From a virus (lineage: Duplodnaviria; Heunggongvirae; Uroviricota; Caudoviricetes), in IMG/VR virus record IMGVR_UViG_2706794678_000013: a stretch of 15,183 nt of DNA. One strand, written 5' to 3'. Below the pieces are notes generated by a model. The model was not told the origin of the DNA, did no database searches, and saw nothing but the letters and a program-made list of their open reading frames with translations. The translations under genes were made by a program, and so were the position numbers. The number at the start of each line of letters is the position of its first letter. Within the stretch, counting starts at the first letter, position 1. Below, piece by piece: positions 2,847 to 15,183 of the stretch.

Positions 2847-5439
2847 TTGCATATTCCTTAGCCCAGCGGGGCAGTGATAACGTCTTAATAGCTGGCCATT
2901 CATCGGTATTGAGGCAGTCAGCCAGGGTTCGCAGATTGCGGTGATATTCCAGCTGACCTGCCAGTTTTGCTTCTTCGCCCATCATGAAAATTTCAACCGG
3001 ATAACGTCCGCATTCAATAGTTGTGCTGGCAACCAGAAAAACGAAAGTTGGCTGCACTCCAAACTGTGCTTCATAACCGTCACTGTAGAATGCATCCTGA
3101 ACGTGATAGCGGTAGTCGTAATAAGCGGTTTTGAATCGTTGAATATCCGCCGTAGTTTTCACGTCCATGATCCAGTGAAATTCAGGGATAATTTTGTCCG
3201 GACGGCACCGACACAAAATTGCTGTTTCAGGATCTTCCCAGTAAATTGATGATTCAGCGTGTCCGGCGCTTTCAACAAGCCATTGCCCCAGCGGCAAAGC
3301 CATAACGCTCTGATACATGAGTTCAATTTTCCGGCCTTCTTCGGCAGTGATAACCGTTTTTCCTGTGCTTGCGCATTCCCTCAGAAACGCTTTCTCTTCT
3401 TCTTTTCCGGAGTTTGTCCGGCGGTTAAATTCAGGTGCTACGATAAAGCGGTTACTGAATTCTTCCGGCTCAAGTACCCGGCAGTGGAAAGCGGTTCCTA
3501 AATCGAGCGTTTTTGTCTTTGTGGTGTCCACGGGGGCATTTTTACGCCACAAATACAGTGCCGGAGTATCAGCAATGTCATCGAGCTGAGACTTACTGAC
3601 ACCGGGACCCGCGTGGTAATTCTCATTCGAAATTCCGTAATAAATACCTGGCTCTATGTCTTCTACGATTACGGGATCTGCGACTTCGCCAGTTTCATCA
3701 CTGCAATCGCGATGCGGATCGCTGCCAGCATTCTCATTGTGCGGATGTTCAGCGCCTTCCATTTCCTCCGGATCATTTTCCTTAGCTTCAACCTGACTCT
3801 CTTCATCGAATGTTTCCTGGTATGTTGCGTCGCCCATCACCGCACCACAGTCAGGGCAGTTATCCCCGCCAGTCTGGCCGCAGGCATTGCAGGCTATTTC
3901 CGGTTCCTGTTGCACTACTGGCTCAGGTTGATTCATATCCGGGCTGGTTTTTTCCGTTTCTGGCTGGTTCTGGTACACACAATCGCGAGTCTGGATCCCC
4001 TTTACCCATTTCGGATCGTTCGGGTCGCTAATTCCGTCAACAAATTCACCACGTGATGCAGCAAGCAATTTATCGGCATCGACAGGATTTTTTGATGGAA
4101 TGTTTTTCCGGGCTTCATGGAGTTCTGCCCGCAGTTCCTGATATTTCGCATCAACAGAATTTACCTGTGACTGAGCATCCAGCGGCTGCGTGTCCTGATG
4201 ATGTTCAGTTGCGTCCGGTTCCATTGTTTCAGCCTCTCCCTGTTCAACTGCCGTTGTTCCAGATGGTTGCGGTTTTTCTTCATCATCCTGTTTTCCTTCT
4301 TCTGTTACTCGCTGCGGCATCGGGGCAGAGGAGCGACCGCAGGCAATATCCACGATTTCCGGATCAGGGTTGGCATGATCGGTTTCAGTCAGTACTTTGT
4401 TCAGATATTCAGTGACGTGCGCGGGGATGACCTCGATCCCAATTGGTGCTTCTTTTACGGACGCAACCACGATGGCGCGGGAATAATCCAGCCCGCCAGG
4501 CATGGTGATGAATTTGTCGCGGAAAACAGAAAAGGGCGGTTTATTTTCAGCGATAATTTCCTCAATGCGTTTAGCGTGTGCCGGATGAAGGTTATAGATG
4601 TCCAGATCCATTGAACGGGCCAGTACGCCAGTGGCTACGTCCCGCGCCAGTGACGTCAGATCGTGTACGAAACCTTCGCCGCGATCGGTGAGGTTTCCGC
4701 CGCCAGCATTAGCACCGGAAGCCGTGCGAGTGATGTGTGAAACACGATTACCCTTCATCCACTCTTTTGTCAGCAGTCCTCGATCGGTGTAGTCAGCGTT
4801 CAGGTATGCTTCGAAAAAAGCAGTTATCAGTCCCAGGTTTGAATTACCAGGATTAGGGAAAACTTTGTCAGTGTCACGAACCAGTTTGTGGAGTTCGCGA
4901 ATTTCCAGCGGGTCGAGCAGGCTGGTTTTGTGGGAAACAGCCAGGGCAGTAACAGCCGGTAGTTCTTCAGCCCGAGCAATGTGTAATGCCTGGAGTCCGT
5001 CGCGTGAAACGTGCGTTACCGGTTTTTCGCTGCCGTGTTGAGCAAGCCAACGAATGGGCAGTTCCTGGCCAGAAATTGGGAGTAGCATATTCTCCTCAAT
5101 CTCAGTCATGTCTTCGCCGTTGACGTTGGTATTGCCTTGATAGTGAGCGTTGTCTGGTGCTGCTCCCGGTTTTAGTTCCCATGTCATGGAGTCTTTGCTG
5201 AGTTGATAGCGTTCACTCCAGGTAAAATCGATCTCACCTTCAGCGGGCAGGTCATTAACGACAGGAAAATTCGTGGCAACAGCTTTAAAATAGCTGCTCA
5301 GTTTTTTACCTGACTTAACGANNNNNNNNNNNNNNNNNNNNNNNNNNNNNNNNNNNNNNNNNNNNNNNNNNNNNNNNNNNNNNNNNNNNNNNNNNNNNNN
5401 NNNNNNNNNNNNNNNNNNNNNNNNNNNNNNNNNNNNNNN
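2839..5439 (-). CDS. recE: RecE exonuclease VIII; 5' end (about 39 codons) lies inside the N-run, start coordinate inferred from 866-aa length
   Basis: Minus ORF with no stop between 2839 and the N-run at 5322; visible sequence ...[61 protein letters not shown] matches remembered RecE; C-terminal exonuclease domain, internal Cys cluster [16 protein letters not shown]. Track ORF start at 5187 is only the first internal Met. Confidence 0.85.
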
Positions 5440-5580
5440 NNNNNNNNNNNNNNNNNNNNNNNNNNNNNNNNNNNNNNNNNNNNNNNNNNNNNNNNNNNNN
5501 NNNNNNNNNNNNNNNNNNNNNNNNNNNNNNNNNNNNNNNNNNNNNNNNNNNNNNNNNNNNNNNNNNNNNNNNNNNNNNNN
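5322..5580. other. Run of 259 N (unresolved or masked bases)
   Basis: Direct observation; hides recE start, the racC-recE intergenic region and racC stop. Confidence 1.
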
Positions 5581-8995: not shown

Positions 8996-9853
8996 ATGCT
9001 GTTTGTGCTTATTCTAAGCCACCGGGCAGCATCATACGGGGCAATTATGGCCGCATTACCATACATGCAACTGTACATAGCTGATTACCTGGCTGACACC
9101 ATGCATTTGTCAGCAGAGGAGCATGGTGCGTATTTGTTGCTGATGTTCAATTACTGGCAAACAGGAAAGCCAATACCTAAAAACAGGCTGGCAAAAATTG
9201 CCCGTCTGACTAACGAGCGATGGGCTGATGTTGAACCATCCTTGCAGGAGTTTTTTTGCGATAACGGCGAGGAATGGGTGCATCTTCGGATTGAGGAAGA
9301 TCTGGCATCAGTCAGGGAAAAATTAACCAAAAAATCAGCCGCAGGAAAAGCATCTGTTCAGGCCAGAAGAAGCAGAAAGGAAGCAGATGTTCAAACAAAA
9401 CAAGAGAGAAATTTAACAGGTGTTCAAACAGATGTTGAAGTGGTGTTTGAACATGATGTCAACACAAAGGCAACTAATAAAGATACAGATAAAGATCTAA
9501 AAACAGATCCCCCCCTAAATCCCCCCCGGGGGAATCGAGGTGTCAAAAAGTTTGACCCTCTGGATATTGCTTTGCCGAACTGGATTTCTGTCTCGCTTTG
9601 GCGTGAGTGGGTTGAATTTCGCCAGGCATTGCGAAAACCGATTCGAACGGAGCAGGGCGCTAACGGGGCGATACGGGAGCTGGAAAAATTCCGCCAGCAG
9701 GGTTTTTCACCTGAGCAGGTGATTCGACACAGCATCGCCAATGAATACCAGGGCTTGTTCGCGCCGAAAGGTGTTCGACCTGAGACGTTACTCCGACAGG
9801 TTAACACCGTCTCGTTACCGGATAGTGCGATCCCGCCAGGCTTCAGGGGGTAA
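8996..9853 (+). CDS. ydaU: YdaU (DUF1376) replication-initiation-associated protein, 285 aa
   Basis: Plus ORF from ATG 8996 (alternative ATG 9047); conserved N-terminal LPYMQLYIADYLADTMHLSAEEHGAYLLLMFNYW; immediately upstream of the DnaC-like gene. Confidence 0.85.
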   Translation: MLFVLILSHRAASYGAIMAALPYMQLYIADYLADTMHLSAEEHGAYLLLMFNYWQTGKPIPKNRLAKIARLTNERWADVEPSLQEFFCDNGEEWVHLRIEEDLASVREKLTKKSAAGKASVQARRSRKEADVQTKQERNLTGVQTDVEVVFEHDVNTKATNKDTDKDLKTDPPLNPPRGNRGVKKFDPLDIALPNWISVSLWREWVEFRQALRKPIRTEQGANGAIRELEKFRQQGFSPEQVIRHSIANEYQGLFAPKGVRPETLLRQVNTVSLPDSAIPPGFRG

Positions 9854-10148
9854 CTGACCATGAAAAATATTGCGACAGGCGACGTTCTTGAACGTATCCG
9901 CAGACTGGCCCCGTCACATGTAACCGCGCCATTCAAGACGGTAGCGGAGTGGCGCGAGTGGCAACTTTCCGAAGGCCAGAAACGTTGTGAGGAGATCAAC
10001 CGTCAGAATCGTCAGTTGCGGGTGGAAAAAATTCTGAATCGCTCTGGCATCCAGCCATTGCACCGCAAATGCTCGTTTTCGAATTACCAGGTGCAGAACG
10101 AAGCGCAGCGATACGCGTTGAGTCAGGCGAAATCCATCGCTGATGAAC
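9590..10148 (+). repeat. Repeat unit A: ydaU 3' end plus ydaV 5' end; diverged duplicate of 10691-11249 (offset 1101 bp)
   Basis: Collinear nucleotide and protein similarity to the second copy; about 6 differences in the first 60 nt of ydaV counted by eye. Confidence 0.8.
9860..10148 (+). CDS. ydaV: YdaV DnaC-like helicase loader, copy 1, 5' portion only (about 96 codons) before N-run
   Basis: ATG 9860, 6 nt after ydaU stop; MKNIATGDVLERIRRLAPSHVTAPFKTVAEWREWQLSEGQKRCEEINRQNRQLRVEKILNRSGIQPLHRKCSFSNYQVQNEAQRYALSQAKSIADE then Ns. Confidence 0.6.
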
Positions 10149-10398
10149 NNNNNNNNNNNNNNNNNNNNNNNNNNNNNNNNNNNNNNNNNNNNNNNNNNNN
10201 NNNNNNNNNNNNNNNNNNNNNNNNNNNNNNNNNNNNNNNNNNNNNNNNNNNNNNNNNNNNNNNNNNNNNNNNNNNNNNNNNNNNNNNNNNNNNNNNNNNN
10301 NNNNNNNNNNNNNNNNNNNNNNNNNNNNNNNNNNNNNNNNNNNNNNNNNNNNNNNNNNNNNNNNNNNNNNNNNNNNNNNNNNNNNNNNNNNNNNNNNN
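10149..10398. other. Run of 250 N (unresolved or masked bases) hiding the junction between ydaV copy 1 and a second ydaU-like segment
   Basis: Direct observation. Confidence 1.
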
Positions 10399-10954
10399 GC
10401 GTTAATTCAGGTTGGATGGCTGGTCGAAAATGACGGAGGGCTTTCTCTACCTAACTTTGAACGTCATAACGGAAAAAGCTCTAAAAAAAACGGGCGGTTA
10501 CAAACGAGCGAGTAACAAAAATACGCGAACTGAAACGAAAAGGTAACGCTGCCAGCGTTACACAAACGGATCAAAAAGCGTTACCAGAGGAAGAGGAAGA
10601 GGAAGATCTAAATACTGATCTCCCCCTCGCCAAAAACGAGCGTCTAAAAAATTCGAGCCGGAGGCTATTGAGCTGCCCGATTGGTTGCCGGAAACACTCT
10701 GGCATGAGTGGGTCCGGTTCAGACAGGCATTGCGAAAACCGATTCGAACGGAGCAGGGCGCTAACGGGGCGATACGGGAACTGGAAAAATTCCGTCAGCA
10801 GGGTTTTACACCTGAGCAGGTGATTCGACACAGCATCGCCAATGAATACCAGGGCCTGTTCGCGCCGAAAGGTGTTCGGCCTGAGACGTTGCTCCGACAG
10901 GTTAACACCGTCTCGTTGCCGGACAGTGCGATCCCGCCAGGCTTCAGGGGGTAA
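10399..10954 (+). pseudogene. Second, diverged ydaU-like 3' segment, 5'-truncated and interrupted by two apparent 1-nt frameshifts in poly-A runs
   Basis: Three consecutive frames must be joined to follow the ydaU-like protein: ...ENDGGLSLPNFERHNGKSSKK (stop 10513-10515) / RAVTNERVTKIRELKRKGNAASVTQTDQKALPEEEEEEDLNTDLPLAKNER / KKFEPEAIELPDWLPETLWHEWVRFRQALRKPIRTEQGANGAIRELEKFRQQGFTPEQVIRHSIANEYQGLFAPKGVRPETLLRQVNTVSLPDSAIPPGFRG; shifts coincide with A8 (10483-10490) and A6 (10646-10651). Confidence 0.5.
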
Positions 10955-11256
10955 CGGACCATGAAAAATATTGCGACAGGCGGCGTTCTGGAACGCATCC
11001 GCCGACTGACCCCGCCACATGTAACCGCCCCATTCAGAACGGTAGCGGAGTGGCGCGAGTGGCAACTTGCTGAAGGCCAGAAACGTAGCGAGGAGATCAA
11101 CCGCCTGAATCGCCAGTTGCGGGTGGAAAAAATTCTGAATCGCTCAGGCATCCAGCCGTTGCACCGTAAATGCTCGTTTGCGAATTACCAGGTGCAGAAC
11201 GACGGCCAGCGATACGCGTTAAGCCAGGCGAAATCCATCGCCGATGAACTGATGAC
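10691..11256 (+). repeat. Repeat unit B: second copy of ydaU 3' end plus ydaV 5' end; its last 225 bp (11032-11256) are identical to 11511-11735
   Basis: Direct comparison of the sequence on both sides of the N-run 11257-11510. Confidence 0.85.
10961..11256 (+). CDS. ydaV: YdaV DnaC-like helicase loader, copy 2, 5' portion before N-run (may be the same gene as 11511-12186 if the N-run is a scaffolding gap)
   Basis: ATG 10961; MKNIATGGVLERIRRLTPPHVTAPFRTVAEWREWQLAEGQKRSEEINRLNRQLRVEKILNRSGIQPLHRKCSFANYQVQNDGQRYALSQAKSIADELM then Ns. Confidence 0.55.
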
Positions 11257-11510
11257 NNNNNNNNNNNNNNNNNNNNNNNNNNNNNNNNNNNNNNNNNNNN
11301 NNNNNNNNNNNNNNNNNNNNNNNNNNNNNNNNNNNNNNNNNNNNNNNNNNNNNNNNNNNNNNNNNNNNNNNNNNNNNNNNNNNNNNNNNNNNNNNNNNNN
11401 NNNNNNNNNNNNNNNNNNNNNNNNNNNNNNNNNNNNNNNNNNNNNNNNNNNNNNNNNNNNNNNNNNNNNNNNNNNNNNNNNNNNNNNNNNNNNNNNNNNN
11501 NNNNNNNNNN
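11257..11510. other. Run of 254 N flanked by identical 225-bp sequence on both sides
   Basis: Direct observation. Confidence 1.
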
Positions 11511-12186
11511 ATTCAGAACGGTAGCGGAGTGGCGCGAGTGGCAACTTGCTGAAGGCCAGAAACGTAGCGAGGAGATCAACCGCCTGAATCGCCAGTTGCG
11601 GGTGGAAAAAATTCTGAATCGCTCAGGCATCCAGCCGTTGCACCGTAAATGCTCGTTTGCGAATTACCAGGTGCAGAACGACGGCCAGCGATACGCGTTA
11701 AGCCAGGCGAAATCCATCGCCGATGAACTGATGACCGGGTGTACAAATTTTGCGTTCAGCGGAAAACCTGGTACCGGGAAGAATCACTTAGCGGCAGCTA
11801 TCGGGAATCGCCTGCTGAAAGACGGTCAGACAGTGATTGTGGTTACCGTGGCTGATGTTATGAGTGCCCTGCACGCCAGCTATGACGATGGGCAGTCAGG
11901 CGAAAAATTTTTGCGGGAACTATGCGAAGTGGATCTGCTGGTTCTTGATGAAATTGGCATTCAGCGCGAGACGAAAAACGAGCAGGTGGTGCTGCACCAG
12001 ATTGTTGATCGCCGGACAGCGTCGATGCGCAGCGTGGGGATGCTGACAAACCTGAACTATGAGGTGATGAAAACATTGCTCGGCGAGCGGGTGATGGATC
12101 GCATGGTCATGAACGGCGGGCGCTGGGTGAATTTTAACTGGGAGAGCTGGCGTCCGAATGTTAGCCATTCGAGGGTTGTTAAGTAG
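11511..12186 (+). CDS. ydaV: YdaV DnaC-like AAA+ helicase loader, 3' portion from about codon 25 to stop (Walker A and B present)
   Basis: Frame FRTVAEWREWQ... continuing through Walker A GKPGTGKNHLAAAIG and Walker B LLVLDEIG to stop TAG 12184-12186; no start codon visible because sequence begins at N-run. Confidence 0.75.
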
Positions 12187-12200
12187 TTTCAGGAGGATTT

Positions 12201-12623
12201 ATGGCGAAACCTTTTACTCCCGAACAGCGGGAAGAACTGAAGACGCGAATTGTGGAACTCGTGCATCAGGACGGTCGGGTCACGATTCGGCAGTTGTCAG
12301 ATGAAACAGGTATCAGTCGTGCGTCTGTCGGTCGCTTATGCATAGAACTGGTCGCAAGTGGTGATGTATATAATTCTGGCTACGGCTTATTCCCGTCTGA
12401 ACAGGCTCGCAAGGACTGGCAAAGCGCCCGCAAAAAACTCTCGAGAGTAAAGGTGAGGAAACCGGTTGTTGTTGATCCGGACCTTATCTGGTCATTACCT
12501 GACGGAGAAATACGCCGCTACGACAGGCGCCTGAATATAATCTGTCGCGAGTGCCGGAAGAGCGAAGCTATGCAGCGTGTACTGGCTTTCTATCAGGGTA
12601 ATTTTCAGGAGGCGATACTGTGA
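12201..12623 (+). CDS. Ren-like protein (homologue of phage lambda Ren, winged-helix N-terminus), 140 aa
   Basis: ATG 12201 with AGGAGG RBS; C-terminal ICRECRKSEAMQRVLAFY resembles lambda Ren ...KECRQSAAMKRVLAVY as I recall it; position directly after the helicase-loader gene matches lambda ren. Confidence 0.7.
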   Translation: MAKPFTPEQREELKTRIVELVHQDGRVTIRQLSDETGISRASVGRLCIELVASGDVYNSGYGLFPSEQARKDWQSARKKLSRVKVRKPVVVDPDLIWSLPDGEIRRYDRRLNIICRECRKSEAMQRVLAFYQGNFQEAIL

Positions 12624-13037
12624 ATGAAATTAGCTATCAGGCTTCAATTACCGCTGGCATTCGCATCAAAGGAGAGGAGCATGGAAATAAAACCAGAAGA
12701 TGAGTTAAGCAATATCGTTTTATTTCCGGTAAAAGAGGATGACCCTCGTAATCAGGTTAATTTTCTTTATGAGCCATCGGAAAGACCATATTGCCATCAC
12801 GCCTCTGTACGGGTTGACGAAAAAGAGCGTCAGGTCCGCTGTAAAATCTGCGGTGCGGTTGTGGAGCCGTTTGACTGGATGCTCTCTGTGGCAAAAAGAG
12901 AAACCAGACTGGCAGATGATGTAAGGCTATTGCGCCAGGAGGAACAGGAAAGGCGGAGAAATATAGAAAAGCTGATACAGATTGAGCGTAACGCGAAAGC
13001 GCGGATACGCAGGGCGACAAAATCCAGAACTGAATAA
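12624..13037 (+). CDS. Hypothetical protein with Cys/His cluster (CHH...CKIC, zinc-ribbon-like) and basic coiled-coil tail; 137 aa (alternative start 12681 gives 118 aa)
   Basis: ATG 12624 directly follows the Ren-like stop with AGGAGG 11 nt upstream; internal ATG 12681 also has an AGGAG RBS. No family recognised. Confidence 0.6.
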   Translation: MKLAIRLQLPLAFASKERSMEIKPEDELSNIVLFPVKEDDPRNQVNFLYEPSERPYCHHASVRVDEKERQVRCKICGAVVEPFDWMLSVAKRETRLADDVRLLRQEEQERRRNIEKLIQIERNAKARIRRATKSRTE

Positions 13038-13184
13038 TTAAATTTAGCACTGTTAAAAATTTAATCCTTAACCGGAGGGATTTCTGCACCCTCAAATCAT
13101 CAGGAGACCACCCGAAAGGGCGGGGAGCAGTCACACATCTGTTTCCGATAGCCCCGTTCTAATGCTACACTCTTTGATATTTTT

Positions 13185-13871
13185 ATGACCCCAATAAACA
13201 TATTTATGACAGTTGCTGATTTCAAACGGCCCAAATTGGAGCTCCCAAACGGGGCAAACAAACTACTACTGCACTCTTGCTGTGCTCCATGTTCCGGTGA
13301 GGTGATGGAGGCGCTTCAGGCCTCGGGAATCGACTACACCATCTTTTTCTACAACCCGAACATTCATCCTCAGAAAGAGTATTTAATTCGTAAGGATGAG
13401 AATATTCGCTTTGCTGAACAACACGGCGTGCCGTTTATTGATGCTGATTACGACACAGACAACTGGTTTGAACGAGCCAAAGGAATGGAATGGGAGCCCG
13501 AACGAGGGATCCGTTGCACCATGTGTTTTGACATGCGTTTTGAGCGGACAGCGCTGTACGCCGCTGAAAATGGTTTCAGTGTGATCAGCAGTTCACTGGG
13601 CATTTCACGCTGGAAAAATATGCAGCAGGTTAACGACTGTGGGCGGCGAGCCGTCGCGCATTATCCGGGCATGGTGTACTGGGATTATAACTGGCGCAAG
13701 CAGGGCGGCTCGTCCCGTATGATTGAAATCAGCAAGCGCGAAAAATTCTATCAGCAGGAATATTGTGGCTGTGTGTATTCTCTGCGCGATACCAATCTAC
13801 ACCGCAAATCTCAGGGACGCCCTCTTATCAAAATTGGTCAACTCCACTACGGTAAAGAAGAGAAGGAGTGA
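13185..13871 (+). CDS. queH: QueH-family (DUF208) epoxyqueuosine reductase homologue, 228 aa
   Basis: Motifs read directly: [11 protein letters not shown] near N-terminus, [22 protein letters not shown], and EYCGCVYS near C-terminus, collinear with QueH/DUF208 proteins as I recall them. Start may be 13185 or 13206; no clear RBS for either. Confidence 0.8.
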
Positions 13872-13892
13872 TTTTATGGGGCACCTTTCTGA

Positions 13893-13922
13893 TTGATTTC
13901 ATATTGGCGAGGTAAGTAGAAT
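13893..13922 (+). promoter_or_regulatory. Putative sigma70 promoter of the hok-like mRNA
   Basis: TTGATT (13893-13898), 18-nt spacer, TAGAAT (13917-13922); predicted +1 near 13929 where the GC-rich tac-like 5' element GCGGGTGCTTGAGGC begins. Confidence 0.4.
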
Positions 13923-13984
13923 GACTGCGGGTGCTTGAGGCTATCTGCTTCAGGCATGAACACCAAAAGGCAGATAGAGAAAAG

Positions 13985-14050
13985 CCCCAGTTAACATTAC
14001 GCGTCCGGCAAGACGCTTAACATTAATCTGAGGCCAATTTCATGCTTTGC
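13985..14050 (-). ncRNA. sok: Predicted Sok-like antisense RNA (antitoxin of the hok module); coordinates approximate
   Basis: By analogy with hok/sok of plasmid R1: minus-strand promoter-like TTGCCT (complement of 14081-14086), 17-nt spacer, TAACCT (complement of 14057-14062), giving an antisense transcript complementary to the mok leader and start. Not directly demonstrable from sequence. Confidence 0.3.
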
Positions 14051-14254
14051 ACATGTAGGTTAGCCTCTTACATGCCGAAAGGCAAGGAGAAGCAGGCTAT
14101 GAAGCAGCAAAAGGCGATGTTAATCGCCCTGATCGTCATCTGTTTAACCGTCATAGTGACGGCACTGGTAACGAGGAAAGACCTCTGTGAGGTACGAATC
14201 CGAACCGGCCAGACGGAGGTCGCTGTCTTCGTAGACTACGAATCCAGGAAGTAA
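14042..14254 (+). CDS. mok: Mok-like in-frame upstream reading frame of the hok module, 70 aa
   Basis: ATG 14042 in frame with hok; N-terminal extension MLCTCRLASYMPKGKEKQA resembles remembered MokC (MLNTCRVPLTDRKVKEKRA...). Confidence 0.5.
   Translation: MLCTCRLASYMPKGKEKQAMKQQKAMLIALIVICLTVIVTALVTRKDLCEVRIRTGQTEVAVFVDYESRK
14099..14254 (+). CDS. hok: Hok/Gef-family type I toxin (HokD/RelF-like), 51 aa single-TM peptide
   Basis: MKQQKAMLIALIVICLTVIVTALVTRKDLCEVRIRTGQTEVAVFVDYESRK; AAGGAG RBS 9 nt upstream; near-identical over the first 45 aa to remembered HokD and HokC, divergent C-terminus. Confidence 0.85.
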   Translation: MKQQKAMLIALIVICLTVIVTALVTRKDLCEVRIRTGQTEVAVFVDYESRK

Positions 14255-14331
14255 GAGTGACCGGGCGGGGAGCTGATCCCATCCCCGCCCACCTCTGATG
14301 TGTCAGGCATCCTCAACGCACCCGCACTTAA

Positions 14332-14376
14332 CCCGCCCATCGCTGTGATCTCTCAGCGTTTCGGCGGGTTTTTTGT
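14332..14376 (+). terminator. Rho-independent terminator at the 3' end of the hok mRNA
   Basis: CCCGCC (14332-14337) ... GGCGGG (14363-14368) stem followed by TTTTTTG; preceded by a second GC hairpin (14263-14290) and the fbi-like element 14311-14325. Confidence 0.55.
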
Positions 14377-14394
14377 TGTTTATTTCCGGTGAAT

Positions 14395-14422
14395 TTGATT
14401 CGCGCACCTTCGCAGATAGAAT
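14395..14422 (+). promoter_or_regulatory. Putative sigma70 promoter for the downstream nin-like genes
   Basis: TTGATT (14395-14400), 16-nt spacer, TAGAAT (14417-14422); same hexamers as the hok promoter. Confidence 0.35.
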
Positions 14423-14503
14423 CGACTCACTTAAGTAGCGCGCAGGGAGAAGAGGGATGGACCCCGAACAGGGGAGAGCTATTTATCTGGAAGGATTCTG
14501 AAG

Positions 14504-14791
14504 ATGAAAATCGAAGAATTGCGTGAAATTTTTAGTGAAAATGGCCTCTATGCTGTGCGCGTTGAGAATGGAGCGATTGTCAGCCATTGCCGCATTAGAT
14601 GTTTGCAATCTCAACAAAGGAAGAGCGGTGCTGTGTTATTTTATTTTTGTAATGGACTTCTGACGGACGGTTTTATTTTGCGTGAGGACGAATTTGTCAC
14701 ATCATTACGGGTTTTGAAAGAGATTGGTTTTAAGGCTGGTTTTCTGCTTTTGCTGAAGAATAAACTCATCTACAATCTTGAGCAGGATTGA
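14504..14791 (+). CDS. Hypothetical protein, 95 aa
   Basis: ATG 14504 with GGAAGGA RBS 8 nt upstream; no family recognised. Confidence 0.55.
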   Translation: MKIEELREIFSENGLYAVRVENGAIVSHCRIRCLQSQQRKSGAVLFYFCNGLLTDGFILREDEFVTSLRVLKEIGFKAGFLLLLKNKLIYNLEQD

Positions 14792-14829
14792 ACTCCTGCT
14801 GTGTAACACCGTGCCACCGGAGAAAGCCG

Positions 14830-15183
14830 ATGGCACATATACAACTGGTCAAACAAACCTCTTCCGGATTACTTCTCCCGGCGACGCCGGAGAGTTGCGA
14901 TTTTCTGCATCAAATCAAAATAGGTGAGTGGATACACGCAGACTTTAAGCGTGTGTGTAACTACGCATTCCACAAGCGTTTTTTCAAACTCCTGCAACTG
15001 GGTTTCGATTACTGGACTCCGGTCGGTGGGGCGATCACGCCTCGCGAACGAAAACTGGTGTCCGGTTTCGTTGATTACCTGTGTGAATCAGTAGGCCGGG
15101 AACATACGCCAGCTCTGAGCGAAGCCGCAGAGCAATTGAGGTGTACTGGCAATAGCGGACACTACCATTTGTTCTTTTTTTAA
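14830..15183 (+). CDS. Lambdoid nin-region protein (possibly DUF1367-like), 117 aa as read; stop codon is the last three bases of the window
   Basis: ATG 14830 with GGAGAAAG RBS; MAHIQLVKQTSSGLLLPATPESCDFLHQIKIGEWIHADFKRVCNYAFHKRFFKLLQLGFDYWTP... resembles prophage proteins I recall; family name uncertain. Track ORF start at 14788 is a TTG codon. Confidence 0.55.
   Translation: MAHIQLVKQTSSGLLLPATPESCDFLHQIKIGEWIHADFKRVCNYAFHKRFFKLLQLGFDYWTPVGGAITPRERKLVSGFVDYLCESVGREHTPALSEAAEQLRCTGNSGHYHLFFF

What the first reader, a model, noticed from the sequence alone, without database searches (positions are those of the whole stretch)
13185..13871. Prophage-borne QueH (cobalamin-independent epoxyqueuosine reductase) as an accessory gene
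The 228-aa ORF carries what I recognise as the DUF208/QueH signature in the right order ([30 protein letters not shown]). Established knowledge: QueH reduces epoxyqueuosine to queuosine at tRNA position 34 without cobalamin; enterobacteria normally use the B12-dependent QueG, and E. coli cannot make B12 de novo. Inference: in a lambdoid prophage, next to hok and outside the core replication and late operons, this looks like a lysogenic-conversion gene that could make the final step of Q-tRNA maturation B12-independent, or serve a phage 7-deazaguanine function. A lone queH in this slot of a Rac-like prophage is not something I know to be described.
Basis: partly seen in the sequence, partly recalled or inferred. 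Interest (0 to 1): 0.7.

Follow-up and report, generated by a model that had tools for sequence, protein, structure and literature searches.

The report
Prophage-borne B12-independent queuosine tRNA reductase
A lambdoid prophage of E. coli carries an intact, strongly conserved copy of QueH, the vitamin-B12-independent enzyme for the last step of queuosine tRNA modification. The gene is already named in databases and sits in about a fifth of E. coli genomes, but I found no paper describing it as phage or plasmid cargo.

Summary
The ORF at 13185-13871 matches Pfam QueH (PF02677) at E=1.9e-65 over the whole profile, matches the solved T. maritima QueH by sequence and predicted fold, and keeps all seven family cysteines. 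The true start is most likely ATG 13206 (221 aa), not 13185.

The gene is a roughly 740-bp cassette. It carries a conserved extended -10-like box (TGCTACACT, 13163-13171). In Rac- and Qin-type lambdoid prophages it occupies a fixed slot between the DUF977/Ren-like gene and hok/sok.

It occurs in 995 of 5426 complete E. coli genomes (O157:H7, O104:H4, ST131, E. coli B), in one isolated phage (HannyBb), in 189 IMG/VR contigs, and on IncF plasmids of Klebsiella and Salmonella. All 5426 genomes also carry queG.

Prophage alleles form one clade next to chromosomal QueH of Kluyvera, Scandinavium and Enterobacter. They show dN/dS of 0.03-0.08, and all 88 copies examined are intact.

Best reading: a functional accessory gene that makes the epoxyqueuosine-to-queuosine step independent of B12. 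The enzyme identity is shown here. The promoter, expression in lysogens and any benefit are inferred. A role in phage DNA modification is not supported.

RefSeq already names the protein QueH, so the novelty is modest and lies in the context and prevalence.

The parts
13206..13871 (+). queH coding sequence (221 aa plus stop). Epoxyqueuosine reductase QueH, identical to RefSeq WP_012421537.1.
   Evidence: PF02677 at E=1.9e-65. PDB 7LC5 at E=5e-22. Predicted fold matches QueH with TM 0.82. PGAP annotation. Start supported.
13185..13205 (+). Probably 5' untranslated leader rather than coding.
   Evidence: Upstream in-frame stop in allele L012. The ATG is ATT in L012 and in the plasmid copies. Residues 1-7 are not conserved.
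13163..13171 (+). TGCTACACT, an extended -10-like promoter box (TG-n-TACACT) about 35 nt upstream of the start. A conserved TTCCGATAG stretch lies about 17 nt further upstream (13143-13151).
   Evidence: Invariant in all prophage alleles, including where flanks diverge. Shared with chromosomal copies in Scandinavium, Kluyvera and Enterobacter and with IncF plasmid copies. The generic sigma-70 scan did not call it because the -35 is weak. Function is inferred.
13135..13877 (+). Approximate extent of the mobile queH cassette (promoter-like region plus ORF) shared between different phage backbones and plasmids.
   Evidence: Alignments of flanks: homology between alleles starts about 30-70 nt upstream of the start, depending on the allele, and ends within about 6 nt after the stop codon.
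12201..12623 (+). Upstream phage neighbour: DUF977 / Ren-like protein (YdaW-like).
   Evidence: PF06163 at E=1e-33. phrog_142. Found upstream of queH in 75 of 80 IMG/VR loci.
12624..13037 (+). Upstream phage ORF with a zinc-ribbon-like CxxC pair (phrog_1621, unknown function). Present in only some queH prophages.
   Evidence: Found in 12 of 80 IMG/VR loci.
13929..14254 (+). Downstream neighbour: hok/sok type I toxin-antitoxin locus. The mok/hok ORF is 14042-14254, with a hok promoter-like site at 13893-13922.
   Evidence: Rfam RF01794 at 117 bits. PF01848 at E=1e-22. Promoter-like site. Found downstream in 66 of 80 IMG/VR loci.
14788..15183 (+). NinB/Orf-like gene. This marks the nin region between the replication genes and the late-gene antiterminator.
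   Evidence: phrog_319 at E=6e-26. The same gene is annotated DUF1367 in L001.

Best explanation
The gene encodes a functional QueH, a cobalamin-independent iron-sulfur epoxyqueuosine reductase. It converts epoxyqueuosine (oQ) at position 34 of tRNA-Asp, -Asn, -His and -Tyr to queuosine.

It is a self-contained accessory cassette ('moron') of about 740 bp. It was captured once from an Enterobacteriaceae chromosome together with its own extended -10 promoter. It now sits in the nin-region slot between the DUF977/Ren-like gene and hok/sok of Rac- and Qin-type lambdoid prophages.

Because E. coli always has the B12-dependent QueG but cannot make B12, the prophage copy would let the lysogen finish Q-tRNA maturation when corrinoids are scarce.

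Shown here: family membership, intact catalytic cysteines, fold, fixed slot, prevalence, monophyly, strong purifying selection, and co-occurrence with queG. Inferred: promoter activity, expression in the lysogen, in vivo activity on oQ-tRNA, and the selective benefit.
For: - Family and residues: PF02677 full length at E=1.9e-65. T. maritima QueH 7LC5 at E=5e-22 over residues 27-203. AlphaFold model (pLDDT 76.5, pTM 0.79) has all five QueH entries as best PDB hits, TM 0.81-0.84 normalised by target length. C32, C33, C36, C111, C114, C194 and C196 are invariant in 8 distinct prophage proteins and 20 diverse homologues.
- CCAPC motif: it is also found in S. aureus and gut-metagenome QueH. C32 and C36 align with C9 and D13 of T. 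maritima, the residues mutated in PDB entries 9D86 and 9DCO.
- Selection: dN/dS is 0.025-0.076 with dS up to 0.45 among prophage alleles. All 88 copies examined are intact ORFs of 221 or 222 aa. There are 45 synonymous-only polymorphic codons against 9 with an amino-acid change. The neighbouring DUF977 gene is much less constrained, at dN/dS 0.09-0.32.
- Origin: prophage alleles are one clade, sister to Kluyvera and Scandinavium and inside an Enterobacter group, with no long branch. Those relatives lie in non-phage contexts.
- Cassette and promoter: sharp homology boundaries, and a TGCTACACT box shared by phage, chromosomal and plasmid copies.
- Prevalence: 995 of 5426 complete E. coli genomes, with queG in 5426 of 5426. 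Also phage HannyBb, 189 IMG/VR contigs and IncF plasmids.
- Background: the oQ-to-Q step in E. coli depends on cobalamin and QueG (PMC4646009). QueH is the non-orthologous replacement (PMC5372724).
Against: - No activity, expression or phenotype data exist for this copy.
- There is no recognisable Shine-Dalgarno sequence before either ATG, so translation may be weak.
- The generic promoter scan did not call the proposed promoter, and no intrinsic terminator was found around the gene.
- The gene lies in the same orientation as the early-right operon, so it could be expressed mainly after induction.
- queG deletion is not known to cost E. coli anything in the laboratory. Deletion did not change growth in PMC11841063, and transposon insertions were even beneficial under Ni and Co stress in PMC9508795. 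The presumed benefit of completing oQ to Q is therefore unproven.
- NCBIfam has no HMM hit for the protein.
Confidence: 0.7

Rival explanations
1. The enzyme is the same, but it serves the phage. QueH is read through from the early-right (pR-type) operon after induction. It tops up Q-tRNA during lytic growth so that phage NAU/NAC codons are decoded efficiently. It is silent in the lysogen.
For: The gene has the same orientation as the early-right operon and lies between the replication genes and the Q-type antiterminator. No terminator was found upstream. An isolated, viable phage carries it.
Against: The promoter-like box is inherited from chromosomal and plasmid copies that have no phage operon around them. 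The same lone cassette is kept on IncF plasmids, where a lytic role is impossible. Many carrier prophages are defective, including Qin of E. coli B and Rac-type elements next to trkG, yet the gene stays intact. Maturing a tRNA pool within a lytic cycle of tens of minutes seems of little value (inference).
Confidence: 0.15
2. QueH has been recruited for another substrate or conflict role. It might alter the anticodon of Q-tRNAs to evade or provoke a tRNA-targeting nuclease or toxin, or reduce a different epoxide. It would then act as defence or counter-defence rather than housekeeping.
For: It sits in a hot spot for conflict cargo. hok/sok, a Ren-like exclusion gene and SieB are in this window, and an NgoMIV-type restriction-modification pair replaces hok in the O157 prophage.
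Against: There is no PADLOC hit. Divergence from chromosomal orthologues is not accelerated: dN is 0.09-0.15 to Erwinia, Providencia and Photorhabdus, against 0.14-0.19 among those three themselves. All ligand residues are kept, and there is no partner gene that always travels with it.
Confidence: 0.07
3. It is a neutral passenger. The gene hitch-hikes in a recombination-prone slot and does nothing useful.
For: Laboratory queG mutants have no obvious growth defect. 82% of E. coli genomes do without it.
Against: dN/dS is about 0.05 at dS up to 0.45. All 88 of 88 copies are intact. Of 995 genomic copies, 985 cover at least 80% of the gene. It is better conserved than its phage neighbour, and it has been taken up independently by plasmids.
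Confidence: 0.05
4. It is part of a phage 7-deazaguanine DNA-modification pathway, as in dPreQ0 or dG+ phages.
For: Only the general link between Q-pathway genes and phage DNA modification (PMC6884629).
Against: No DpdA/TGT-like transglycosylase and no FolE, QueD, QueE or QueC appear in the window ORFs I read or scanned, the inspected part of the FDAARGOS_944 prophage, or the inspected part of HannyBb. QueH acts after base insertion and QueA, on the cyclopentene epoxide. No known DNA modification contains that group (established knowledge). The cassette also lives on plasmids and chromosomes alone.
Confidence: 0.03

Closest known systems
Chromosomal QueH (DUF208/COG1636; T. maritima QueH, PDB 7LC5/7LC7/9DEU; shown by Zallot et al. 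2017 to replace QueG)
   Same: Same Pfam family over its full length and the same predicted fold. It has the same CCxPC, RCxxC and CGC cysteine set. It is 89-92% identical in tblastn alignments to chromosomal QueH of Scandinavium, Kluyvera and Enterobacter (91-94% over 208 ungapped columns).
   Different: It is carried by a temperate phage or prophage (and elsewhere by IncF plasmids), in a host that already has QueG. Position 36 is Cys where T. maritima has Asp13, but Cys is the common state in the family.
[quoted passage not shown]
   Same: It catalyses the same predicted reaction (oQ34 to Q34, EC 1.17.99.6). Both genes are present in every queH-positive E. coli genome.
   Different: It is unrelated in sequence and fold, and QueH needs no B12. 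queG is core (5426 of 5426 genomes), whereas queH is accessory (995 of 5426).
Phage 7-deazaguanine gene clusters (DpdA with FolE/QueD/QueE/QueC, plus or minus ArcS/QueF-L/Gat-QueC; Hutinet et al. 2019)
   Same: These are Q-pathway-related genes carried by phages.
   Different: Those clusters modify phage DNA and stop at preQ0-type bases. The authors found no QueA, QueG or QueH in the viruses they analysed. Here a lone late-step tRNA enzyme is present with none of those genes.
B12-independent back-up isozymes (MetE vs MetH, class I/III vs class II ribonucleotide reductase)
   Same: The logic is the same: a cobamide-dependent enzyme and a cobamide-independent enzyme for one reaction in one genome (PMC6461909).
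   Different: In this case the B12-independent partner is supplied by mobile elements and is strain-variable.
Lambdoid phage morons in the nin region (for example hok/sok and restriction-modification pairs in the same slot)
   Same: It is a discrete insert with sharp boundaries between conserved phage modules. It is present or absent among otherwise related prophages, and it appears to have its own promoter.
   Different: The cargo is a tRNA-modification enzyme rather than a toxin, exclusion or virulence factor. No terminator was found.

Membership tests
QueH (PF02677 / DUF208 / COG1636) | Full-length match to the family profile above the curated threshold | tested here: met
   PF02677 at E=1.9e-65, 220.6 bits against a gathering score of 23.5, profile positions 1-174 of 175.
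QueH (PF02677 / DUF208 / COG1636) | Homology and fold identity with an experimentally solved QueH | tested here: met
   phmmer against PDB 7LC5 at E=5e-22 over residues 27-203. The AlphaFold model's top five Foldseek hits are all T. maritima QueH entries, TM 0.81-0.84 normalised by target length.
QueH (PF02677 / DUF208 / COG1636) | Conserved metal-binding cysteines: CCxP(C/D) near the N-terminus, RCxxC in the middle, and CGC near the C-terminus | tested here: met
   C32, C33, C36, C111, C114, C194 and C196 are present and invariant in prophage alleles and in 20 homologues. They align with T. maritima C9, C10 and D13 and its RCERC and YCGCVFS motifs. The assignment of these residues to the [4Fe-4S] cluster and the adjacent Fe site rests on my memory of Li et al. 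2021, which I could not retrieve.
QueH (PF02677 / DUF208 / COG1636) | Catalyses oQ-tRNA to Q-tRNA without cobalamin | not testable with these tools
   This needs complementation of a queG deletion and LC-MS of tRNA nucleosides.
QueH (PF02677 / DUF208 / COG1636) | The host supplies the substrate (a complete Q pathway up to QueA) | not tested
   The E. coli Q pathway is established knowledge (PMC5372724). Only queG presence was checked here (5426 of 5426).
Phage moron / lysogenic-conversion cassette | A discrete insert between conserved phage modules, variably present among related phages | tested here: met
   The slot DUF977 -> queH -> hok or other cargo is fixed in Rac- and Qin-type prophages. 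Homology boundaries are sharp. The gene is found in 18% of E. coli genomes.
Phage moron / lysogenic-conversion cassette | Own promoter, active in the lysogen | tested here: inconclusive
   A conserved TGCTACACT extended -10-like box travels with the gene in phage, plasmid and chromosomal copies. The generic scan did not call it, and there are no expression data.
Phage moron / lysogenic-conversion cassette | Own transcription terminator | tested here: not met
   No intrinsic-terminator-like site was found in 12600-14600.
Phage 7-deazaguanine DNA-modification system | A DpdA/TGT-family transglycosylase encoded by the same phage | tested here: not met
   None among the window ORFs I read or scanned, nor in the annotated parts of the FDAARGOS_944 prophage and HannyBb that I inspected. 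Not every ORF was scanned against a profile library.
Phage 7-deazaguanine DNA-modification system | preQ0 synthesis genes (FolE, QueD, QueE, QueC) in the phage | tested here: not met
   None annotated or seen.

The most novel reading that the evidence does not exclude
Mobile elements (lambdoid phages in E. coli, IncF plasmids in Klebsiella and Salmonella) spread a B12-independent oQ reductase because completing oQ to Q has a real, so far unrecognised, fitness value in corrinoid-limited niches such as the gut. E. coli strains would then differ heritably in their tRNA wobble chemistry depending on prophage content. This could affect translation of NAU-rich genes, or sensitivity to toxins that target Q-tRNA anticodons.
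Probability: 0.15. Interest if true: 0.65.

Novelty: new member of a known kind. Interest (0 to 1): 0.38.

Why it matters
Nobody has shown a phenotypic difference between oQ and Q in tRNA, and queG mutants look normal in the laboratory. A mobile, strongly constrained, B12-independent oQ reductase in about 18% of E. coli genomes is indirect evidence that the last step of Q synthesis matters in nature. Carriers include O157:H7, O104:H4, ST131 and the laboratory B/BL21 lineage.

It also offers ready-made natural isogenic contrasts to test this, such as K-12 (no queH) against E. coli B (queH in Qin).

It corrects the impression that viruses carry no Q-specific late-step genes. It also flags an annotation gap: PHROGs and the HannyBb record list the protein as unknown, partly because of N-terminally truncated gene calls.

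Practically, tRNA preparations from BL21 and K-12 grown without B12 may differ in oQ and Q content.

Tried and rejected
- Riboswitch or other RNA element upstream of queH: Rfam found nothing at the gathering score or at E<=1 except the downstream sok/hok RNA. Folding the 171-nt leader gave z=-1.2, which is unremarkable.
- Generic promoter and terminator scan: it found no queH promoter and no terminator. The promoter proposal therefore rests on comparative conservation only.
- Defence-system membership: there is no PADLOC hit.
- NCBIfam: no HMM hit for QueH. PGAP's name for the protein must come from another rule.
- Phage-borne tRNA substrates: there are no tRNA genes in the window. The prophage tRNAs downstream in L001 are Ile, Arg, Thr and Gly, which are not Q-tRNAs.
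- Hits in the phage collection other than HannyBb: the 'Acinetobacter phage MD-2021a' (328 kb) record is a bacterial chromosome piece (soxR, cynX, tadA neighbours). The Staphylococcus (282 kb) and Listeria 'phage' records are flagged UNVERIFIED_ORG where inspected, carry no annotation, and are probably bacterial too. The remaining hits are unverified faecal contigs. None of these was used as evidence.
- Literature: searches for QueH or DUF208 with phage, prophage or lambdoid found no description of a phage-borne QueH. The three key primary papers could not be read. These are Zallot 2017 (PMC5495094), Li 2021 (PMC8884141) and Miles 2011 (PMC3088584). I cannot exclude that Zallot et al. mention E. 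coli prophage copies.
- Donor identification by the upstream motif: the strict box occurs only in the nearest Enterobacteriaceae relatives (5 of 79 species loci). Looser TACACT and TATATT variants occur in other Enterobacterales.
Full report

Yes. The + strand has an ATG-to-TGA ORF at 13185-13871 of 228 codons.

Pfam PF02677 (QueH) matches at E=1.9e-65 with 220.6 bits against a cut-off of 23.5, covering profile positions 1-174 of 175. A sequence search of the PDB finds T. maritima QueH (7LC5, 7LC7, 9DEU) at E=5e-22 over residues 27-203. An AlphaFold model (pLDDT 76.5, pTM 0.79) has the five QueH entries as its best Foldseek hits, at TM 0.81-0.84 normalised by target length. More distant adenine-nucleotide alpha-hydrolase-fold enzymes such as TtuA, LarE and QueC follow.

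**2. Correction of the gene model**

The true start is almost certainly the second ATG, at 13206 (M8), giving 221 aa.
- In the divergent Rac-type allele (L012) an in-frame stop precedes M8.
- In that allele and in the plasmid copies the upstream ATG reads ATT.
- Residues 1-7 differ freely between alleles ([21 protein letters not shown]), while everything from M8 onward is conserved.
- PGAP calls the gene from M8, and chromosomal homologues begin there.

Neither ATG has a recognisable Shine-Dalgarno sequence.

**3. Catalytic residues**

Seven cysteines are invariant in 8 distinct prophage proteins and in 20 homologues of 78-90% identity. In 228-aa numbering they are C32, C33, C36, C111, C114, C194 and C196. 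C152 varies.

In the HMMER alignment, C32, C33 and C36 correspond to T. maritima C9, C10 and D13. The RCTMC and YCGCVYS motifs correspond to RCERC and YCGCVFS. PDB holds C9S and D13N mutant structures (9D86, 9DCO), so those positions are of mechanistic interest. Cys at the D13 position is not an oddity: S. aureus and gut-metagenome QueH also read HSCCAPCS.

The statement that these residues bind a [4Fe-4S] cluster and an adjacent iron comes from my memory of Li et al. 2021. I could not retrieve that paper.

**4. Context in the window**

The window is a Rac-like lambdoid prophage. On the minus strand it has integrase, excisionase, RecT and RecE; SieB lies on the plus strand. A divergent repressor and early-right operon follow, with YdaT, YdaU (DUF1376) and a DnaC-like YdaV.

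After these come DUF977/Ren-like (12201-12623), a zinc-ribbon ORF (12624-13037), queH, a hok/sok locus, and NinB-like (14788-15183). The hok/sok locus is supported by Rfam RF01794 at 13929-14104 (117 bits) and by a mok/hok ORF at 14042-14254.

queH therefore lies in the nin-type region between the replication genes and the late-gene antiterminator. The right third of the window is 99.8% identical to a prophage beside ybhA and modC in E. coli FDAARGOS_944.

**5. How widespread is it, and where does it sit?**

- Megablast finds the gene in 995 of 5426 complete E. coli genomes (18%). 985 copies cover at least 80% of the gene, almost all are chromosomal, and PGAP annotates them as 'epoxyqueuosine reductase QueH'.
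- Carriers include O157:H7, O104:H4, O25b:H4-ST131, APEC O1, strain 042 and an E. coli B derivative.
- In every locus inspected it lies after DUF977 and before hokD or other cargo. This holds both in Rac-type (racR-ydaSTUV ... trkG) and Qin-type (dicB-ydfABC) prophages. In an O157 prophage the cargo after queH is a cytosine methyltransferase plus an NgoMIV-family endonuclease.
- The isolated temperate phage HannyBb carries it, annotated as hypothetical.
- IMG/VR holds 189 viral contigs with a close relative. Of the best 80, 75 have DUF977 and 66 have hok beside it.
- The exact protein is on at least 1000 contigs and is named 'MULTISPECIES: epoxyqueuosine reductase QueH [Enterobacteriaceae]'; a second allele in the same cluster is also named from Shigella sonnei.
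- The same cassette, including its upstream region, also sits alone among IS elements and other cargo on IncF conjugative plasmids. There are 16 Klebsiella records at 85.6% nucleotide identity, and one Salmonella record at 92.6%.

**6. Origin**

QueH is highly conserved across Proteobacteria, with 75-92% identity even to Sphingomonas.

Only one of 80 species-representative genomes with a close relative (E. albertii) shows the phage neighbours. The nearest non-phage copies are in Scandinavium (92%), Kluyvera (91%) and Enterobacter (89-90%). The Scandinavium and Enterobacter neighbours I scanned are ordinary metabolic genes. Erwinia and Providencia have it in housekeeping neighbourhoods, for example between purL and glrK, and Photorhabdus has it in a non-phage chromosomal context.

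In an NJ tree the prophage alleles form one clade, sister to Kluyvera and Scandinavium and inside an Enterobacter group, with no long branch. This suggests a single capture from an Enterobacteriaceae chromosome, followed by spread among lambdoid backbones by recombination. The NJ tree is a rough tool, so single capture is an inference.

**7. Is it under selection?**

- Pairwise Nei-Gojobori dN/dS among prophage alleles is 0.025-0.076, with dS up to 0.45.
- All 88 prophage and viral copies examined are intact, at 221 or 222 aa. 45 codons carry only synonymous polymorphism, against 9 with amino-acid changes.
- The adjacent phage gene DUF977, in the same prophage pairs, is far more diverged (72-89% nucleotide identity for all but one near-identical pair) and less constrained (dN/dS 0.09-0.32).
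- dN to chromosomal orthologues is 0.09-0.15. This is no larger than dN among those orthologues themselves (0.14-0.19), so there is no sign of neofunctionalisation.

**8. Regulation**

Rfam finds no riboswitch, and the leader has no significant fold. The generic scan finds no promoter or terminator for queH.

Comparative alignment does reveal an invariant TGCTACACT at 13163-13171, with the form TG-n-TACACT of an extended -10 element. It lies about 35 nt upstream of ATG 13206 and is preceded by a conserved TTCCGATAG.
- It is conserved in all prophage alleles, even where the surrounding sequence is unrelated.
- It is also conserved in the chromosomal copies of Scandinavium, Kluyvera and Enterobacter (TGCTACAAT or TGCTACACT) and in the IncF plasmid copies.
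- Homology between alleles begins about 30-70 nt upstream of the start, depending on the allele, and stops within about 6 nt after the stop codon.

I read this as a self-contained cassette that kept its native promoter. Promoter activity is inferred, not shown.

**9. Relation to QueG and B12**

queG is present at 80% coverage or more in all 5426 complete E. coli genomes, so QueH is always an addition. The oQ-to-Q step in E. coli was shown to depend on cobalamin, and yjeS/queG was identified from mutants that accumulate oQ (PMC4646009, citing Frey 1988 and Miles 2011). QueH is the established non-orthologous replacement (PMC5372724).

The pairing of cobamide-dependent and cobamide-independent isozymes in one genome is a known pattern (PMC6461909). 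That E. coli cannot make B12 de novo is established knowledge.

The most economical mechanism is therefore that the cassette lets a lysogen, or a plasmid host, complete Q-tRNA when corrinoids are lacking.

The weak point is the benefit. queG loss has no known cost in the laboratory. The strong constraint on a mobile copy argues that some cost exists in nature.

**10. Rivals**

- A purely lytic-phase role is possible, because the gene is co-oriented with the early-right operon. It fits poorly with the plasmid and chromosomal copies that share the same upstream box, and with retention in defective prophages.
- A conflict-related or altered-substrate role is not excluded but has no positive support. 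There is no PADLOC hit, no accelerated evolution, and no constant partner gene.
- A neutral passenger is contradicted by the selection data.
- A role in 7-deazaguanine DNA modification is contradicted by the absence of DpdA/TGT and preQ0-synthesis genes in the ORFs and annotations I examined. The chemistry of the reaction also argues against it.

**11. Novelty**

The protein and its name are already in RefSeq. What I could not find in 8 million full texts is any discussion of QueH as phage or plasmid cargo.

Hutinet et al. 2019 state that no QueA, QueG or QueH homologues were found in the viruses they analysed. PHROGs lists the family (phrog_3217) as 'unknown function', with a profile that starts at residue 34. 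That reflects truncated gene calls that lose the CCAPC motif. I could not read Zallot et al. 2017, which may mention E. coli copies.

I rate this a new member of a known kind: a known enzyme appearing as a recurrent mobile accessory gene. It is of moderate interest, mainly because it gives a handle on whether oQ versus Q matters.

Noticed in passing
window 9520-11735 (N-runs at 1658-1967, 5322-5580, 10149-10398, 11257-11510): A direct repeat of about 1.1 kb covers the ydaU 3' end and ydaV 5' end (84-88% identity). In addition, a 225-nt segment (11032-11256) is repeated exactly at 11511-11735, straight across a 254-N run. This gives three partial or complete ydaV 5' ends. It could be a real tandem duplication or an assembly or masking artefact.
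   Followed up: partly
L183 5992-6660 (K. pneumoniae IncFIB/IncFII plasmid p90CM2-172k); L184 6001-6669 (Salmonella IncFII plasmid): The same lone queH cassette, including the upstream TTCCCGATAG...TGCTACACT region, sits on conjugative IncF plasmids among IS elements, TonB fragments and fec genes. There are 16 Klebsiella records, one Salmonella record and one Enterobacter record.
   Followed up: partly
phage collection records CAKLQH020000001.1, OR844989.1, OR848462.1 and others: 'Acinetobacter phage MD-2021a' (328 kb) is a bacterial chromosome piece (soxR, cynX, tadA neighbours), and its QueH is labelled 'putative prophage protein'. The Staphylococcus (282 kb) and Listeria 'phage' records are flagged UNVERIFIED_ORG where inspected, carry no annotation, and are probably bacterial too. 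None of these is evidence for phage carriage.
   Followed up: yes
window 13206-13871 against PHROGs; L002 8001-8687 (phage HannyBb): PHROG family phrog_3217 is labelled 'unknown function'. Its profile covers only residues 34-221, so member gene calls start at an internal Met and lose the CCAPC motif. The HannyBb record calls the gene 'hypothetical protein'.
   Followed up: yes
L003 7872-9882 (E. coli O157:H7 Z892 prophage): In this prophage the slot immediately after queH holds a DNA cytosine methyltransferase plus an NgoMIV-family restriction endonuclease instead of hokD. The DUF977-to-Q-antiterminator interval is therefore a cargo hot spot.
   Followed up: no
L004 7022-7687 (E. coli B derivative, Qin-type prophage): The laboratory E. 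coli B lineage carries an intact queH in its Qin prophage. The megablast listings from K-12 queries did not show a K-12 copy, and I did not check K-12 directly. B/BL21 and K-12 may therefore differ in the B12 dependence of Q formation.
   Followed up: partly
window 13074-13125: Two GC-rich hairpins (GGAGGG...CCCTC, and CCACCC-GAAA-GGGCGG with a GNRA loop) lie in the intergenic region upstream of the cassette. They occur only in this allele, are not followed by a T-run, and the terminator scan did not call them.
   Followed up: no
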